From sequence record OZ413489.1: a stretch of DNA of 64,000 nucleotides. One strand, given 5' to 3'. The DNA is from a phage. The notes beneath the pieces are model-generated. The model ran no database searches. It was not told the DNA's origin and worked only from the letters and a program-made list of their open reading frames with translations. How positions within the stretch are numbered: the first letter of the stretch is position 1; each line of letters opens with the position of its first letter. This document shows, piece after piece, positions 24,827-63,580 of the stretch. The translations under genes and the position numbers were made by a program.

Positions 24827-25222
24827 TTACTGAAACAGTGCGGATAAATTACCTTCTGGTGGGAACTTATCTGCCAAAAACGGTGTTAGCACAGTAGCCC
24901 TCTGAAGATCTGGGGTCCACTCGTTGTTCAGAACATCCCAGTAGTACGCAATGTTGCTGTGTGGGTGCCGCATTACGAACTTTTTCCCTTCGTAGTCATC
25001 TGAAACCTCTACAGAAGAAATAACAACAGAATCTTCAAGGGTTTCTTCATAGAAAGATCCACCTTCAAATTTCCAACGAGATGCAAGAGCCCCTGCCTTG
25101 AACGCTGCAGATAACGGACTGTCGGCAAGAACATACATTTCTTGCACTCTGTCGCTGCGATCTTTGCTTCTTACGTTGTATACAGTATCTGAGCTATACT
25201 CAACACGGTATAGGCTTACCAT
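24827..25222 (-). CDS. hypothetical protein, paralog of 27029..27427
   Basis: Shared HP(H/D)S...YW...W TP block. Confidence 0.65.
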   Translation of the reverse strand: MVSLYRVEYSSDTVYNVRSKDRSDRVQEMYVLADSPLSAAFKAGALASRWKFEGGSFYEETLEDSVVISSVEVSDDYEGKKFVMRHPHSNIAYYWDVLNNEWTPDLQRATVLTPFLADKFPPEGNLSALFQ

Positions 25223-25554
25223 TACCGAACCTCCTCAATAACTTCCACATCTGAACCTACCACAAATGCAAAAGGACAGGTTTCATGAAAGATATCCGGA
25301 TCGCCGCCAAGCTTGCTAACAATTTCTCCACCACTAATAAACACAAGCTCACCGATATTCATCAGATTGCTGAAATAGTACCCATAATGATTAAAGAATG
25401 CAGCAGGGTCAGGTAGACTAGTAGCCTCAAGCACTACATCGGTTGAGGTTACTTTCTTATCATAACCTCTCGCCTTTTGAGATGCAAGATCTGCAGAATC
25501 CTCAGGCGACCGGAGATGCACAGGAATTGTTTCACCAATAAAGCGTACTTTCAT
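25222..25554 (-). CDS. hypothetical protein
   Basis: ATG start at MKVRFIGE; track start is TTG. Confidence 0.55.
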   Translation of the reverse strand: MKVRFIGETIPVHLRSPEDSADLASQKARGYDKKVTSTDVVLEATSLPDPAAFFNHYGYYFSNLMNIGELVFISGGEIVSKLGGDPDIFHETCPFAFVVGSDVEVIEEVR

Positions 25555-25558
25555 ATTA

Positions 25559-25822
25559 TCACCCAACAACCATAGCTTCAAAAGGAGTCATGAACGAATA
25601 AACGGCATCATCATCTGCTTCAGGGAATGCTCCCAAAGACTTCATATCTGAGCCCTTGACAAATACAAGGTTTTGATCAAAGGCTTCTTGGGGGTCAATC
25701 CGATACATATTTCGTAAAATATCGCTTACCTCCTCATCAAGAGGTGAGTATGCTGTGCACGTTTTTCCGATCAAGCTTTGAGAATCAGGGTATCCACCTG
25801 AAGTTTTAAAATAAACAATCAT
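25559..25822 (-). CDS. hypothetical protein
   Basis: 87-aa ORF. Confidence 0.6.
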   Translation of the reverse strand: MIVYFKTSGGYPDSQSLIGKTCTAYSPLDEEVSDILRNMYRIDPQEAFDQNLVFVKGSDMKSLGAFPEADDDAVYSFMTPFEAMVVG

Positions 25823-25913
25823 ATAGTATCACCTCTGGTAAGAGATTGGGACTCCTTTCCCACAAATAATTACAAATCTTCCTTAGCGAGGAAGTATGCT
25901 AATCCAAGCAGGA

Positions 25914-26183
25914 TTATTCCTCTACAATCTCATACACATCAGGAGTTACAATCAACTCTTCTCCGTTACCCGGTGCAACAAACACCACCAAACCTTCAGG
26001 TGTGTGCTTTTTAGCCATCTCGATAACATCTTCTCGCAGAGCTGGCTCCATCAGATCAAAACCTTCACCTAGGGCATCACGAACCACCTTCATATAGTCC
26101 ACTGGTTGTGCTTCAACAATCATGCCTTCAACCAGTCCACAATTTTTGTCTGCCAGCTCAGTTTGGAATAATTTAATTTTCAT
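25914..26183 (-). CDS. hypothetical acidic protein (MKIKLF family)
   Basis: 89-aa ORF. Confidence 0.6.
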   Translation of the reverse strand: MKIKLFQTELADKNCGLVEGMIVEAQPVDYMKVVRDALGEGFDLMEPALREDVIEMAKKHTPEGLVVFVAPGNGEELIVTPDVYEIVEE

Positions 26184-26320
26184 TTAGAGGTCTCCTCAAT
26201 TATTTGATATTAATAGCCGTAACCTAACACATTAACTACAACTGCGATTGCAAACATAATTTCAAAGCATGCAATCTCTACATTTGGGACTAATTTCTTA
26301 ATCACACCCATTGTAGCACC

Positions 26321-26638
26321 TCATTCTCCAAAGTCAATCTTTACTTTGCCTTTCCCCTTACCTTTCTTTCCACCGCATTTAGCCAGCTGACGTGCTGCAA
26401 CATCTACCATACGGTCAGTTGCCTCGTAAGCATCACTGCCTTTAGCCTTGGCAATAACTTCTTTTCCAGAATTGTCAAAAATGAACGCCATAACTTCCTG
26501 GTGATCATTTTCAACTTTTACACTCACACGTGCATAGTTGGCAGAGGGATGCAAACGCTCCAACTTAGACATTTTGTGGGAAATGAAAGACACCATACCT
26601 TCAGTGATTTCTACGTTGCCAGTGATTTCAATTTGCAT
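26321..26638 (-). CDS. ribosome hibernation promoting factor / RaiA (YfiA) family homolog
   Basis: MQIEITGNVEITEGM...KVE...AKAKGSDAYEATDRMVDVAARQLAK aligns by eye with E. coli HPF (MQLNITGNNVEITEAL...ASAEGQDMYAAIDGLIDKLARQLTK); Lys/Gly-rich C-terminal tail. Confidence 0.7.
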   Translation of the reverse strand: MQIEITGNVEITEGMVSFISHKMSKLERLHPSANYARVSVKVENDHQEVMAFIFDNSGKEVIAKAKGSDAYEATDRMVDVAARQLAKCGGKKGKGKGKVKIDFGE

Positions 26639-26720
26639 AACGTGTTCCTTTTAAAGAAGAGGGAACCGAACCCTCTTTGAAAACAATGATACTAAATCTG
26701 AAGCGTTGTGTCAACAGTTT

Positions 26721-27011
26721 TTACAGATTGTTGTCGATAGTTTTTAAAATATCCACAGCAAGATCTGCCATTTTTCGAACATACTCTGCAAACTCAACAG
26801 GATCCTTGATCAAAGAATTCACAGGGTCGTACCCTAGAGCGTTCAAAATGGCTGCAGCATCTACAACCTTCTCATCATTTGCGAAGATCTCTCCATCAAA
26901 CTTGTAGGTCCATTTTGAGTCAATCTTGGCAGGGAATGATTGGTCAACGCTTGTTACACCATCCTTTTTAAACGCTCCGGTGTTATCAGTGTCTAGAACT
27001 AAATCCATCAT
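26721..27011 (-). CDS. hypothetical protein
   Basis: 96-aa ORF. Confidence 0.6.
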   Translation of the reverse strand: MMDLVLDTDNTGAFKKDGVTSVDQSFPAKIDSKWTYKFDGEIFANDEKVVDAAAILNALGYDPVNSLIKDPVEFAEYVRKMADLAVDILKTIDNNL

Positions 27012-27028
27012 GTTAGTACCTCACCGTT

Positions 27029-27427
27029 TCAGTTTAGCTTTTCTTCAACAACCCCATAGCTCGGGACAGAGTCAAGAGCTTTCTGGTTTAAAAGTGGTGT
27101 AGCAGAATCTGCAAACGGTGTCCAAGTTTTTGTTCTGGCGTTCCAGTAATGCTTCACTCTGGAATCTGGATGCACTATAACAAAAACTTTTTCACTTGTC
27201 AACACATTAATTTCTTCCACACCCCTGCTGATAATTTCTCCGTCATATCCCCCGGTCTGGTATCCTTCGTACCAGGTTCTTGCATAGGCATAGCCAGCCT
27301 GCCAGCATGCAGCCTCCTCCGAGGTGGAGACTACGTAGAAGTCTTTCTCAAATTCTGGGATACGCCCTTGCTTTACGCTCCAAGCTCCGCGAATTTTCAT
27401 TGTAACTTTGAATAGTTTATTTTTCAC
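27029..27427 (-). CDS. hypothetical protein, paralog of 24827..25222
   Basis: 132-aa ORF. Confidence 0.65.
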   Translation of the reverse strand: MKNKLFKVTMKIRGAWSVKQGRIPEFEKDFYVVSTSEEAACWQAGYAYARTWYEGYQTGGYDGEIISRGVEEINVLTSEKVFVIVHPDSRVKHYWNARTKTWTPFADSATPLLNQKALDSVPSYGVVEEKLN

Positions 27428-27439
27428 AACGGTTACCCA

Positions 27440-27694
27440 TCACAGTTCTACAATATCTGCATCTGACCCTGCCCCAAAGGCATAATAGGACTCTTCCCCG
27501 AAATAATATTCCGGTGCACCAGCAGCGATCAGGTCTGATCCCAAAATGAATACCACGTTGTGGCCTACATAGCTGTGATTTTGCCGCACAGGATCATCCC
27601 ACGGCAACCCTTCGAAGTATACCGCAGGGACGACCTTTCCTTTCAGGAAGGATTGCCCCAAGTAGACGTTAGAATCAAGAATTTTAACCTTCAT
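27440..27694 (-). CDS. hypothetical protein, MKVK(I/V)LD paralog family
   Basis: Shares MKVKxLDS...GKV...DLIAAGA with 27684..27911 and 31324..31557. Confidence 0.65.
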   Translation of the reverse strand: MKVKILDSNVYLGQSFLKGKVVPAVYFEGLPWDDPVRQNHSYVGHNVVFILGSDLIAAGAPEYYFGEESYYAFGAGSDADIVEL

Positions 27695-27911
27695 GATCGT
27701 CCTCCACTATCTCTACATCCTCACCTAGGGCAAAGTTGTAGGTCCACTGACTGTCAAAGCATTCCTGAGATGCACCAGCGGCAATAAGATCTGCCCCTTT
27801 TATTTTTAAAAGGTCAGGGTAATCTTCGTTAGGGACAGCAGTAAACACTTTCCCTACTAAAGGCTCCTGACCAATATAGAAGCTTGAATCTAAAACTTTA
27901 ACTTTCATCAA
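27684..27911 (-). CDS. hypothetical protein, MKVK(I/V)LD paralog family
   Basis: Tandem paralog. Confidence 0.65.
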   Translation of the reverse strand: MMKVKVLDSSFYIGQEPLVGKVFTAVPNEDYPDLLKIKGADLIAAGASQECFDSQWTYNFALGEDVEIVEDDHEG

Positions 27912-28195
27912 CGGTCTCCATCAGGTGGTTGTGGGACGTAAACACTGTTACGAATATCGTCCGCAGTATAGTAATAAGTGTCTCCAACCCTATCTCTGGC
28001 TGCAATGTACTCTGCTATACCAATAAGTGCCATTGATTTGGTGGCGTATCTTCCCCACTCGTTAGCTCCCCAGTAGAATTTAGACCAGTAGGGAATAATA
28101 CCGAACAAATATACCTTTTGACGAACTTCCCAGTAAGTGCCTTTTCCGACAAGTTTAAACTCTACTTCACTACTGTTAATCTTTTTCATTATCAA
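27908..28195 (-). CDS. hypothetical protein
   Basis: 95-aa ORF. Confidence 0.6.
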   Translation of the reverse strand: MIMKKINSSEVEFKLVGKGTYWEVRQKVYLFGIIPYWSKFYWGANEWGRYATKSMALIGIAEYIAARDRVGDTYYYTADDIRNSVYVPQPPDGDR

Positions 28196-30793: not shown

Positions 30794-31327
30794 CTACAAA
30801 TGGTCGCTGAGGGTGTCAAGAAAATTATCCCGTTCTTTCTCAGAGTTTTCATGTGTGTAGCTGAAAAACATATCGAGAATAACCTTATTGATATATTCCA
30901 GCTCCTCTGTGTTCAGATGCTTAGCAGGATCTACAATGACATCCCAAATATCATACAGACCACACTCATGATACCCATAACGCCACTCAATTGTCAAGCT
31001 GAGCGGCAAATCTTTACCTTCACAAACAACCTTCCATCTACATATGTTGGTATCTGGTCGTACCTGTGCACGGTACACCTGCACAAAATCCAATTTGAAT
31101 TTGAGGTACTCGTCATACAATTTAAGCACAAAGCTCTCGATTTGTGGAGACACTTTTGCAGCAAACTGTGCGTATTTGTACTTGCACTGGATGATCTTTC
31201 TACGTTTTGCAGTTAAATTTTTTGCCGCCAGTTGTTCTTCAGTGTATCTCCACCTACGATCAACAAACGCAACAGGGTCTTTGTCCCCATAGAGGTCTTC
31301 CCAGTTAATCAGAAGCATACCTGTCAC
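30794..31327 (-). CDS. hypothetical protein
   Basis: 177-aa ORF. Confidence 0.65.
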   Translation of the reverse strand: MTGMLLINWEDLYGDKDPVAFVDRRWRYTEEQLAAKNLTAKRRKIIQCKYKYAQFAAKVSPQIESFVLKLYDEYLKFKLDFVQVYRAQVRPDTNICRWKVVCEGKDLPLSLTIEWRYGYHECGLYDIWDVIVDPAKHLNTEELEYINKVILDMFFSYTHENSEKERDNFLDTLSDHL

Positions 31328-31557
31328 TCCTCCACAACTTCAAGGCCTTTACCGCCTCGCTCTGGCAGATTACTTAAAGATAGGTAATACATATAATCAG
31401 GAGAGATCCTGCCAGACTCTGCACCTGCAGCTAGTAAATCCTTCCCTTTAACCAGGACAACATTCTCGTTTGCAGATAGCCGTTTTGCTTCCACAATTTT
31501 ACCAACACAGTCAACCAAGGAAGGGTACCCTAAATCTGTAAGAAATTTAACTTTCAT
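31324..31557 (-). CDS. hypothetical protein, MKVK(I/V)LD paralog family
   Basis: MKVKFLTD...GKIV...DLLAAGA. Confidence 0.6.
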   Translation of the reverse strand: MKVKFLTDLGYPSLVDCVGKIVEAKRLSANENVVLVKGKDLLAAGAESGRISPDYMYYLSLSNLPERGGKGLEVVEE

Positions 31558-62767: not shown

Positions 62768-62842
62768 GCCCTGTTAGCTTAGTGGATAAAGCAGCGGCCT
62801 TCTAAGCCGTTGACACTGGTTCGAGTCCAGTACGGGGTGCCA
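62768..62842 (+). tRNA. tRNA-Arg (anticodon UCU)
   Basis: Cloverleaf folded by hand; loop cttctaa; TTCGAGT T-loop; encoded CCA. Confidence 0.75.
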
Positions 62843-62846
62843 AATT

Positions 62847-62933
62847 GGGGAGTTATCCCGTAGAGGTAGCGGTGTAGACTGTAAATCTATTGTCATTGCG
62901 ACTCGGGTGGTTCGACTCCACCACTCCCCACCA
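62847..62933 (+). tRNA. tRNA-Tyr (anticodon GUA), long variable arm
   Basis: Perfect acceptor ggggagt/actcccc; loop ctgtaaa; encoded CCA. Confidence 0.75.
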
Positions 62934-63047
62934 AATTTATATTTTTAGATGCATAAATAATACAGATAATGGCATTGATATTTATCGTCGTTTATACTAG
63001 TCACTAACTGCTCGAAAATCAGTGTCATTATCAGTATAATTTATAAA

Positions 63048-63138
63048 GGAGGGTAGGGAGCAATGGTGCTCAAGCGGTCTTGAAAACCGTCCCGTTGAGG
63101 ATGACTCGATGATGGTTCGATTCCATTACTCTCCGCCA
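63048..63138 (+). tRNA. tRNA-Ser (anticodon UGA), long variable arm
   Basis: Anticodon arm gcggt-cttgaaa-accgt close to E. coli tRNA-Ser(UGA); encoded CCA. Confidence 0.7.
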
Positions 63139-63236
63139 CATTGTTGACCTTGTAATTAAGCGAAAGCCGGAAGCAGAACCGGATTATCAAATGTTACAGT
63201 CGTCATCGCCGACTAGCAACATGGTCAACATGCTGA

Positions 63237-63335
63237 GCTAGGTAAGCCCTTTGGCAAGGGCGAGGATTTTTAATCCTGAAAATAGACGAGGTAGTCGTTG
63301 AATACATAGGTGGTTCGATTCCATCACCTAGCACC
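63237..63335 (+). tRNA. tRNA-like gene with aberrant anticodon arm
   Basis: Acceptor gctaggt/acctagc, D-arm and T-arm fold; anticodon region is either a 5-nt loop or a 4-bp stem with loop tttttaa; 3' end is CC then T. Confidence 0.35.
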
Positions 63336-63340
63336 TTTTT

Positions 63341-63416
63341 GCTGATGTAGCACAATCGGTAGTGCAATTGATTTGTAATCAATAGGTTGTAGGTTCAAAT
63401 CCTGCCATCAGCACCA
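63341..63416 (+). tRNA. tRNA-Thr (anticodon UGU)
   Basis: Perfect acceptor gctgatg/catcagc; loop tttgtaa; encoded CCA. Confidence 0.8.
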
Positions 63417-63417
63417 A

Positions 63418-63492
63418 GGCCCTGTAGCTGGAAGGTTCAAGCAAGCGACTCATAATCGCCAGACGGTGGTTCAATTCCACCCAGGGCCACCA
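63418..63492 (+). tRNA. tRNA-Met (anticodon CAU; could be Ile-lysidine type)
   Basis: Perfect acceptor ggccctg/cagggcc; loop ctcataa; encoded CCA. Confidence 0.75.
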
Positions 63493-63503
63493 AATAGTAA
63501 ATA

Positions 63504-63580
63504 CTCCGCGTAGCTCAGCTTGGTAGAGCGCCTGATTTGGGATCAGGAGGTCGAGTGTTCGAATCACTTCGTGGAGACCA
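63504..63580 (+). tRNA. tRNA-Pro (anticodon UGG)
   Basis: Anticodon arm cctga-tttggga-tcagg; canonical D-arm; encoded CCA. Confidence 0.75.

What the first reader, a model, noticed from the sequence alone, without database searches (positions are those of the whole stretch)
26321..26638. Phage-encoded homolog of ribosome hibernation promoting factor (HPF/RaiA)
The 105-aa product aligns by eye along most of its length with E. coli HPF and carries an extra Lys/Gly-rich tail. A phage copy of a ribosome-silencing factor inside a block of unknown small genes suggests manipulation of host translation.
Basis: partly seen in the sequence, partly recalled or inferred. Interest (0 to 1): 0.65.

Follow-up and report, generated by a model that had tools for sequence, protein, structure and literature searches.

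The report
Known phage copy of ribosome hibernation factor
The gene is real and clearly derives from the bacterial ribosome-silencing protein HPF, but it is the long-annotated gp139 of coliphage rV5, which a 2019 study expressed in E. coli without finding it on ribosomes, so what it does is still open.

Summary
A 105-aa ORF lies at 26321-26638 on the minus strand. It matches Pfam Ribosomal_S30AE (48.3 bits, cut-off 23.7) and TIGR00741 (45.9, cut-off 40.9). It models as a beta-alpha-beta-beta-beta-alpha HPF fold (TM 0.91, rmsd 1.0 A to V. cholerae HPF) with a disordered Lys/Gly tail.

It is not new. The window is a Vequintavirus (rV5-like coliphage), and the protein is 100% identical to rV5 gp139/ORF144. 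Mizuno et al. 2019 listed it and expressed it in E. coli. They found it in crude extract but not in 500 mM NH4Cl-washed 70S/100S ribosomes, and saw no effect on 100S.

This analysis adds three points:
- The protein is only 33-44% identical to any cellular HPF.
- It keeps K23, K26, R83 and K87 (E. coli numbering) but has lost K80, K89, T53 and H55, which are near-invariant in 121 gammaproteobacterial HPFs.
- It is under strong purifying selection (pN/pS 0.04-0.07) and sits behind its own near-consensus sigma-70 promoter.

Most likely it is an early, salt-labile binder of the 30S decoding channel that acts more like RaiA than like a promoter of 100S dimers. A non-ribosomal new function is a serious rival. 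Interest is low to moderate.

The parts
26321..26638 (-). Complete CDS of the phage HPF-family protein (105 aa plus stop); the orthologue of rV5 gp139/ORF144
   Evidence: ORF list. 100% amino-acid identity to rV5 YP_002003641/ABI79209. Pfam, TIGRFAM and PDB matches.
26375..26638 (-). HPF/YfiA core domain, residues 1-88. Strands 2-7, 33-43, 46-55 and 60-67; helices 13-29 and 70-88.
   Evidence: AF2 model with block-mean pLDDT 87-95 for residues 1-80 and 81 for residues 81-90. Foldseek against PDB: 4hei TMt 0.91 and rmsd 1.0 A; 6h4n_x TMt 0.87. Residue-by-residue comparison with 121 bacterial HPFs.
26324..26374 (-). Flexible polybasic C-terminal tail, residues 89-105 (GGKKGKGKGKVKIDFGE). It begins where a Gly-Gly pair ends helix alpha-2.
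   Evidence: pLDDT <50 for residues 91-105. Net charge +4 for residues 88-105. Conserved within Vequintavirus despite pS up to 0.47. The sister lineage has a different but still basic tail that ends in a similar K-W-D-Y.
26686..26714 (-). Sigma-70-type promoter directly upstream: TTGACA, 17 nt, TATCAT (11 of 12 matches)
   Evidence: Consensus scan. The same element is annotated as promoter P144 in the rV5 RefSeq record. A perfect TTGACA occupies the equivalent position in the divergent sister lineage L002. No transcript evidence was examined.
26646..26650 (-). Shine-Dalgarno AAGGA, 7 nt before the ATG
   Evidence: Read directly from the sequence.

Best explanation
This is the Vequintavirus (rV5 gp139) copy of an enterobacterial short hpf gene that diverged strongly after capture.

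Proposed mechanism: host RNA polymerase transcribes it early from its own sigma-70 promoter. The product is a small, basic HPF-fold protein that still docks in the tRNA/mRNA channel of vacant host 30S/70S ribosomes. Docking would use the retained h44-facing residues, which are K22, K25, R28, R83 and K87 in phage numbering.

Two features differ from host HPF. The head-facing surface is rewired: the T53/H55 positions are now Phe/Phe, and K80 is lost. A flexible Lys/Gly tail replaces the end of helix alpha-2.

The expected consequence is RaiA-like, salt-labile occupancy. Idle ribosomes would be kept as protected 70S monomers, and the phage protein would compete with host HPF+RMF. The protein would not promote 100S dimers.

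Shown: homology, predicted fold, promoter motif, the pattern of retained and lost residues, and purifying selection. Inferred: ribosome binding, the role of the tail, and the benefit to the phage.
For: - Family membership above curated cut-offs.
- Predicted fold superposes on ribosome-bound E. coli HPF 6h4n_x and on V. cholerae HPF at 1.0-1.1 A.
- Retained positions: K23 (100% conserved in 121 bacterial HPFs), K26, R83, Q84 and K87. Cryo-EM work names K26, R83 and K87 as contacts to C1496/G1497, m4Cm1402 and nearby bases (10.1101/2025.10.07.680626).
- The replacements at the m2G966/uS9 contact positions are Phe or Arg, residues that commonly contact RNA bases (this reading is inference).
- The protein is more basic than host HPF or RaiA: pI 8.7 against 6.5 and 5.95. 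It also has new lysines at positions 59, 64 and 66 on beta-4.
- Strong purifying selection: pN/pS 0.04-0.07 within the genus. Against the 64%-identical sister lineage, core pN is 0.22 while pS is saturated at 0.83.
- Present in 119 phage records and syntenic in a divergent lineage.
- Near-consensus sigma-70 promoter.
[quoted passage not shown] A tail-bearing HPF homologue is therefore expected to behave like RaiA.
- No 100S increase on expression fits a RaiA-like role rather than an HPF-like one.
Against: - The identical protein expressed in E. coli was not detected by MS in 70S or 100S fractions, although it was present in the extract.
- K80 (100% Lys) and K89 (98% Lys) are lost in both phage lineages. 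Both are described as strictly conserved rRNA contacts. T53 (93%) and H55 (95%) are also lost.
- Several core hydrophobic residues are replaced by smaller ones: M70A, I74T, L81A, F31H and I34A. The surface geometry may therefore differ from the AF2 model, which was driven by bacterial HPF sequences in its alignment.
- The tail has no sequence similarity to RaiA's tail, which is acidic at its end.
- It is unclear how blocking the A/P site would help a phage that needs translation.
Confidence: 0.45

Rival explanations
1. Neofunctionalised HPF fold. After capture the protein lost stable ribosome binding and now uses its dsRBD-like fold and basic tail on another target. That target could be another RNA (phage or host mRNA, or tRNA) or a host protein reached through the conserved C-terminal K-[IW]-D-[FY] motif.
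For: - Not found on ribosomes, and no effect on 100S, when expressed.
- Loss of the universally conserved K80 and of K89, T53, H55, R17 and E/D51.
- About 30 positions that are at least 80% conserved in bacterial HPFs differ, and many of these changes are shared by both phage lineages. They were therefore fixed early and then conserved.
- Only 33-44% identity to any cellular HPF. Only 22 hits at E<1e-3 among 1.8 billion representative proteins.
- Strong purifying selection shows it does something.
- The HPF-like fold has been re-purposed in phages before, in the Acb4 sponges.
Against: The negative experiment used a 500 mM NH4Cl wash and late-exponential cells. From my own knowledge, not checked here, this treatment also strips host RMF, HPF and YfiA. 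The residues that face h44 are retained. No alternative target is indicated by any data.
Confidence: 0.33
2. Classical HPF function. The phage protein cooperates with host RMF to convert 70S ribosomes into 100S dimers, shutting down host translation.
For: The best sequence and structure matches are to short HPF rather than RaiA: NF007780 scores 55.8 bits against 17.6 for RaiA NF007654, and the top PDB hits are HPFs.
Against: - No effect on 100S on expression.
- Below the HPF equivalog cut-off (55.8 of 125 bits).
- Head-contact residues have changed.
- The extra tail is the feature that, in RaiA, prevents RMF binding.
- Global ribosome dimerisation would also block phage translation.
Confidence: 0.08
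3. Acb4-like nucleotide sponge. An oligomeric HPF/dsRBD-like protein sequesters cyclic-nucleotide immune signals such as those of CBASS.
For: Acb4 of phage SPO1 was reported to resemble the V. cholerae hibernation factor 4HEI structurally (10.1101/2024.12.30.630793). Small-residue substitutions in the core (M70A, L81A, I74T) could in principle open a pocket (speculation).
Against: No protein named Acb4 appears among the phmmer hits to PDB sequences at E up to 10 or in the top 50 Foldseek PDB matches. All strong matches are true HPF/RaiA proteins with clear sequence homology. There is no evidence of oligomerisation.
Confidence: 0.04
4. A drifting, functionless remnant of captured host DNA.
For: High divergence from cellular HPFs. 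No phenotype in the one published expression test.
Against: - pN/pS of 0.04-0.07 within the genus, and pN well below the saturated pS against the sister lineage.
- An intact ORF in the window and in all five related loci translated, with full-length protein matches in 119 phage records.
- Its own promoter and Shine-Dalgarno sequence.
Confidence: 0.02

Closest known systems
E. coli / enterobacterial short HPF (YhbH; PDB 2rql, 6h4n, 4v8h; NCBIfam NF007780)
   Same: - Same single-domain beta-alpha-beta-beta-beta-alpha fold, with rmsd about 1.1 A to 6h4n_x.
- Co-linear alignment over residues 1-89, about 40% identity.
- Retains K23, K26, E28, E44, Y71, D75, D79, R83, Q84 and K87 in E. coli numbering.
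- Highest identities, 43-44%, are to short HPFs, several from Enterobacterales. Mizuno et al. placed the coliphage proteins among gammaproteobacterial HPFs.
   Different: - Scores 55.8 bits against the 125-bit equivalog cut-off.
- One-residue deletion in the beta1-alpha1 loop and one-residue insertion in the beta3-beta4 loop.
- K80, K89, T53, H55, R17, K45 and E51 replaced.
- Smaller core residues (M70A, I74T, L81A).
- New lysines at 59, 64 and 66.
- Helix alpha-2 ends at a Gly-Gly pair and is followed by a 17-residue Lys/Gly tail.
- pI 8.7 against 6.5.
- Phage-borne, with its own sigma-70 promoter.
- No 100S effect reported.
E. coli RaiA / YfiA / protein Y (PDB 1n3g, 4v8i; NCBIfam NF007654)
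   Same: Same fold, plus a C-terminal extension beyond the HPF core. In RaiA this extension occludes the RMF site and gives 70S monomers instead of 100S dimers. RefSeq names the phage protein RaiA.
   Different: Only 22% identity. Scores 17.6 bits against the 158-bit cut-off. The tail is unrelated in sequence and opposite in charge: +4 Lys/Gly against -4 with an acidic end.
Other phage-encoded HPF-family proteins (Cronobacter phage GAP32 K4F6Q6, Escherichia phage PBECO4 L7TII8; PHROG 8990)
   Same: HPF-fold proteins encoded by large myoviruses of enterobacteria. Mizuno et al. listed GAP32 alongside the rV5 group.
   Different: Only 21-25% identity. They belong to a different PHROG: this protein is in phrog_12469, annotated 'unknown function', at E 7.5e-71, and matches phrog_8990 only at 1.5e-06. 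Mizuno et al. place GAP32 elsewhere in the HPF tree, which suggests independent acquisitions.
Acb4 anti-CBASS sponge (Bacillus phage SPO1)
   Same: A small phage protein reported to share dsRBD/HPF-like topology.
   Different: No detectable sequence match and no top structural match here. Acb4 works as an oligomeric nucleotide sponge, and nothing here indicates that.

Membership tests
HPF/YfiA superfamily (Pfam PF02482 Ribosomal_S30AE; TIGR00741) | Profile-HMM match above the curated gathering or trusted cut-off | tested here: met
   PF02482: 48.3 bits against 23.7, E=1.8e-12, profile positions 1-83 of 88. TIGR00741: 45.9 bits against 40.9.
HPF/YfiA superfamily (Pfam PF02482 Ribosomal_S30AE; TIGR00741) | [quoted passage not shown] | tested here: met
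   AF2 secondary structure E2-7, H13-29, E33-43, E46-55, E60-67, H70-88, mean pLDDT 83. Foldseek TMt 0.84-0.91 to solved HPFs. This is a prediction, and the alignment behind it was dominated by bacterial HPFs.
HPF/YfiA superfamily (Pfam PF02482 Ribosomal_S30AE; TIGR00741) | Conserved basic residues of helix alpha-2 that contact 16S rRNA (K80, R83, K87, K89, K91; list) | tested here: inconclusive
   R83 and K87 are retained, and a Lys aligns with K91. K80 (100% Lys in 121 HPFs) is V here and T in the sister lineage. K89 (98% Lys) is G/S.
HPF/YfiA superfamily (Pfam PF02482 Ribosomal_S30AE; TIGR00741) | Beta-sheet motif contacting m2G966 and the uS9 C-terminus (T53, H55, E60, H/V/F62) | tested here: not met
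   T53 becomes F (R in P0004). H55 becomes F in both. E60 is kept here but is V in P0004. Position 62 is I/M.
HPF/YfiA superfamily (Pfam PF02482 Ribosomal_S30AE; TIGR00741) | Physical binding to the 30S decoding channel of 70S ribosomes | not testable with these tools
   A published test on the identical protein was negative after a 500 mM NH4Cl wash of ribosomes from late-exponential cells (PMC6375957). The authors call it inconclusive.
Short HPF equivalog (NCBIfam NF007780, E. coli YhbH type) | Equivalog-level score, implying the same function (100S promotion with RMF) | tested here: not met
   55.8 bits against a cut-off of 125. No 100S effect reported.
RaiA/YfiA equivalog (NCBIfam NF007654) | Equivalog-level score and a RaiA-type C-terminal tail | tested here: not met
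   17.6 bits against a cut-off of 158. A tail is present but is unrelated in sequence and basic rather than acidic.
Acb4 anti-CBASS sponge family | Sequence or close structural similarity to SPO1 Acb4 | tested here: not met
   No protein named Acb4 among the phmmer hits to PDB sequences at E up to 10, nor among the top 50 Foldseek PDB hits. I did not confirm that an Acb4 chain is present in either library.

The most novel reading that the evidence does not exclude
The Vequintavirus protein is no longer a hibernation factor. It would instead be an HPF-derived antagonist or re-purposed RNA/ligand binder. One version is an early 'anti-hibernation' factor: its rewired head-contact surface and polylysine tail let it displace host HPF/RMF, or stop ribosomes entering the 100S state during infection-triggered dormancy. 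Another version is a binder of a non-ribosomal target through the conserved C-terminal K-[IW]-D-[FY] motif.
Probability: 0.3. Interest if true: 0.6.

Novelty: already known. Interest (0 to 1): 0.3.

Why it matters
If the protein does act on ribosomes during infection, it would be one of the few phage factors that target the ribosome's dormant state. That bears on how lytic phages cope with starved or defence-arrested hosts. The gene, its homology and this hypothesis are already in the literature and in dozens of GenBank annotations. The one direct test gave no ribosome association. What remains valuable is narrower: the residue-level pattern (h44-facing contacts kept, head-facing contacts and K80 replaced, tail added, strong purifying selection) gives specific mutants and conditions for a decisive re-test.

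Tried and rejected
1. Acb4-type nucleotide sponge. This was prompted by a paper noting Acb4/HPF structural similarity. No sequence or top structural match was found, so I rejected it as a membership claim and kept it only as a low-probability rival.
2. Pseudogene or drift. Rejected by pN/pS of 0.04-0.07 and by pN well below the saturated pS against the sister lineage.
3. 5'-UTR hairpin at 26657-26677 as a regulatory element. MFE is -9.9 kcal/mol, but z is only -0.84 against shuffles, and it is absent from the sister lineage. Not pursued.
4. Wider phage distribution. tblastn of the phage collection found the gene only in Vequintavirus records. The single 'Salmonella' hit is a bacterial contig carrying the host's own hpf at 42% identity. 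A pattern scan of IMG/VR returned only 2 loci, both near-identical, so no broader phage clade could be assembled.
5. Literature on later functional work. Six further searches found nothing beyond Mizuno et al. 2019.
6. A sequence-only search of 1.8 billion representative proteins gave just 22 hits at E<1e-3. This shows divergence but revealed no informative intermediate between phage and cellular forms.

Full report
**1. The observation**

The ORF exists exactly at 26321-26638, on the minus strand. It starts with ATG at 26638 and encodes 105 aa. An AAGGA Shine-Dalgarno sequence lies 7 nt upstream.

- phmmer against all PDB chain sequences puts E. coli HPF (2rql, 4v8h, 6h4n) on top at E=5e-12 to 2.5e-11, co-linear over residues 1-89.
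- Pfam Ribosomal_S30AE scores 48.3 bits against a gathering score of 23.7.
- TIGR00741 (HPF/YfiA family) scores 45.9 bits against 40.9.

An AlphaFold2 model was built with a 61-sequence alignment (mean pLDDT 83.3, pTM 0.72). It has the beta-alpha-beta-beta-beta-alpha order of the family, and residues 91-105 are disordered with pLDDT <50. Foldseek against PDB returns only HPF/RaiA/pY proteins among its 35 matches at E<=1e-3. The best is V. cholerae HPF 4hei (TMt 0.91, rmsd 1.0 A), followed by ribosome-bound E. coli HPF 6h4n_x.

The Lys/Gly-rich tail (CGGKKGKGKGKVKIDFGE, net +4) is real.

**2. What and where it is**

The window is a Vequintavirus. A 3 kb stretch around the gene is 99% identical to Escherichia phage JohannBauhin and 95-99% identical to about 100 rV5-like phages. 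The protein is 100% identical to rV5 gp139/ORF144 (YP_002003641, ABI79209).

Depositors have named it variously 'sigma 54 modulation factor', 'ribosome hibernation (promoting) factor' and 'ribosome-associated translation inhibitor RaiA'. In a few records it is wrongly called 'ATP-dependent protease La'.

It lies in a long one-strand block of small genes without annotated function. Directly upstream is a near-consensus sigma-70 promoter, TTGACA-17-TATCAT, at 26714..26686. The rV5 RefSeq record annotates the same element as P144.

A 64%-identical orthologue (P0004) sits at the syntenic position in 126-137 kb contigs of a more distant vequintavirus-like lineage. That lineage shares only 12-16% megablast coverage with known phages. 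It also has a perfect TTGACA upstream of the gene.

**3. Prior knowledge**

Mizuno et al. 2019 (Nat Commun 10:752, PMC6375957) listed this very protein among virus-encoded ribosomal proteins. They placed the coliphage HPFs among gammaproteobacterial sequences in their phylogeny. They suggested that viral HPF might compete with cellular HPF and prevent ribosome dimers.

They also tested it. They expressed it from pBAD24 in E. coli NM522 and harvested at OD600 = 1. Ribosomes were pelleted through a 500 mM NH4Cl sucrose cushion and run on gradients, and the 70S and 100S fractions were analysed by MS.
- Peptides of the phage protein, including the C-terminal VKIDFGE, were found in crude extract but not in ribosome fractions.
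- The 100S peak was unchanged.
- The authors list growth phase, true loss of binding, or salt stripping as possible explanations.

From my own knowledge, not checked here, host RMF, HPF and YfiA are themselves removed by high-salt washing. The negative result is therefore weak.

Further literature searches found no later functional work.

**4. New analysis: how far it has moved from cellular HPF**

A filter-free phmmer scan of 1.8 billion representative proteins found only 22 hits at E<1e-3. Apart from the phage orthologue, the short (roughly 95-145 aa) HPF-sized hits were 27-45% identical. A profile search recovered 1302 HPFs. The listed short HPFs are 33-44% identical to the phage protein, and several of the highest are from Enterobacterales.

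I aligned the phage protein and P0004 with 121 short HPFs, mostly gammaproteobacterial by their source names, plus E. coli HPF and RaiA. I compared the result with the ribosome-contact residues reported from cryo-EM of enterobacterial and Pseudomonas HPF and RaiA (bioRxiv 10.1101/2025.10.07.680626).

Retained (E. coli numbering):
- K23 (100% conserved in the 121 bacterial HPFs)
- K26 (contacts C1496/G1497)
- Q29 replaced by R
- Y71, D75, D79
- R83 (contacts m4Cm1402)
- Q84 and K87

Lost in both phage lineages:

| Position (E. coli) | Conservation in 121 HPFs | This phage / P0004 | Reported role |
|---|---|---|---|
| K80 | 100% Lys | V / T | rRNA contact |
| K89 | 98% Lys | G / S | rRNA contact |
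| T53 | 93% | F / R | m2G966 contact |
| H55 | 95% | F / F | uS9 C-terminus contact |
| R17 | 78% Arg, 17% Lys | V / V | not stated |
| E/D51 | 100% acidic | M / S | not stated |

Other changes:
- Core positions carry smaller residues: M70A, I74T, L81A, F31H and I34A.
- New lysines appear at 59, 64 and 66 on the beta3-beta4 loop and on beta-4.
- There is a one-residue deletion in the beta1-alpha1 loop and a one-residue insertion in the beta3-beta4 loop.

Many of these changes are shared by the two phage lineages. They were therefore fixed before the lineages split and have been kept since.

The protein is more basic (pI 8.7; P0004 9.4) than E. coli HPF (6.5) or RaiA (5.95).

At equivalog level it is neither HPF (55.8 of 125 bits) nor RaiA (17.6 of 158 bits).

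**5. Selection**

Within Vequintavirus, pN/pS is 0.04-0.07 at pS up to 0.47, and the tail is conserved. Against the sister lineage, synonymous sites are saturated (pS 0.83). pN is 0.22 in the core and 0.46 in the tail. That tail is replaced by a different basic sequence but ends in a similar K-W-D-Y, compared with K-I-D-F here. The gene is therefore functional and constrained.

**6. Interpretation**

The retained residues are those that face h44 and the body side of the decoding channel. The changed residues face the 30S head (h31 m2G966 and the uS9 tail). Their replacements, Phe and Arg, are residue types that often contact bases.

In E. coli, the feature that turns an HPF-fold protein from a promoter of 100S dimers into a 70S-monomer factor is a C-terminal tail that blocks RMF binding.

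I therefore favour, at 0.45, an early-expressed, salt-labile, RaiA-like occupant of vacant ribosomes that competes with host HPF/RMF. Binding itself, the path of the tail and the benefit to the phage are all inferred.

The main rival, at 0.33, is that stable ribosome binding has been lost and the fold re-used for another target. The published negative result, the loss of K80 and the remodelled core fit this reading.

The remaining readings are unlikely:
- Classical promotion of 100S dimers (0.08).
- An Acb4-like nucleotide sponge (0.04). No protein named Acb4 appears.
- A decaying remnant of host DNA (0.02).

**7. Verdict**

The homology is right. The functional reading is plausible but unproven, and it has already been tested once without support. 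The finding is already known from database annotations and from Mizuno et al. 2019.

Interest is low to moderate. The residue-level pattern and the salt caveat define a clear re-test, but nothing here would surprise a specialist.

Noticed in passing
window 24827-25222 (-) and 27029-27427 (-); 27440-27694 (-), 27684-27911 (-) and 31324-31557 (-): The block of small genes around the HPF gene contains at least two paralogous families. One is a pair of 131/132-aa proteins (28% identity, E 2e-9). The other is a trio of 75-84-aa proteins (42% identity at E 1e-14; 31% at E 2e-6). This points to local duplication of early genes of unknown function.
   Followed up: partly
window 26210-26311 (-), with a promoter-like site at 26337..26310: A 33-aa hydrophobic ORF (the counterpart of rV5 gp140) follows the HPF gene directly. 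A promoter-like TTGACT-16-TACAAT with an upstream TG lies inside the 3' end of the HPF gene. This ORF is absent at the same position in the sister lineage L002.
   Followed up: partly
window 62768-63580 (+): A cluster of seven tRNA calls (Arg-tct, Tyr, Ser, Thr, Met, Pro). One is an odd 99-nt call at 63237-63335 with a four-base anticodon (atcc) and no assigned amino acid.
   Followed up: no
window 26657-26677 (-): [quoted passage not shown] MFE is -9.9 kcal/mol, which is not better than shuffles (z = -0.84). It is not present in the sister lineage.
   Followed up: yes
GenBank records matching window 25000-28000 (for example MG065654, MG065666): Eighteen records labelled 'Campylobacter phage' match this E. 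coli Vequintavirus region; those listed are about 98% identical. The host labels look doubtful. Several other records annotate the HPF gene as 'ATP-dependent protease La type I', an evident annotation error.
   Followed up: no
L002 5001-5312 (Logan ERR6997038 contig, 125.8 kb), also L003 and L004: A vequintavirus-like lineage not represented in the phage collection (12-16% megablast coverage). It carries a 64%-identical HPF orthologue at the syntenic position. NCBI holds the same protein under an 'Escherichia coli' RaiA label.
   Followed up: partly
BFVD hits K4F6Q6 (Cronobacter phage GAP32) and L7TII8 (Escherichia phage PBECO4): Jumbo myoviruses of enterobacteria carry their own HPF-fold proteins, only 21-25% identical to this one. 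They are probably separate acquisitions.
   Followed up: no
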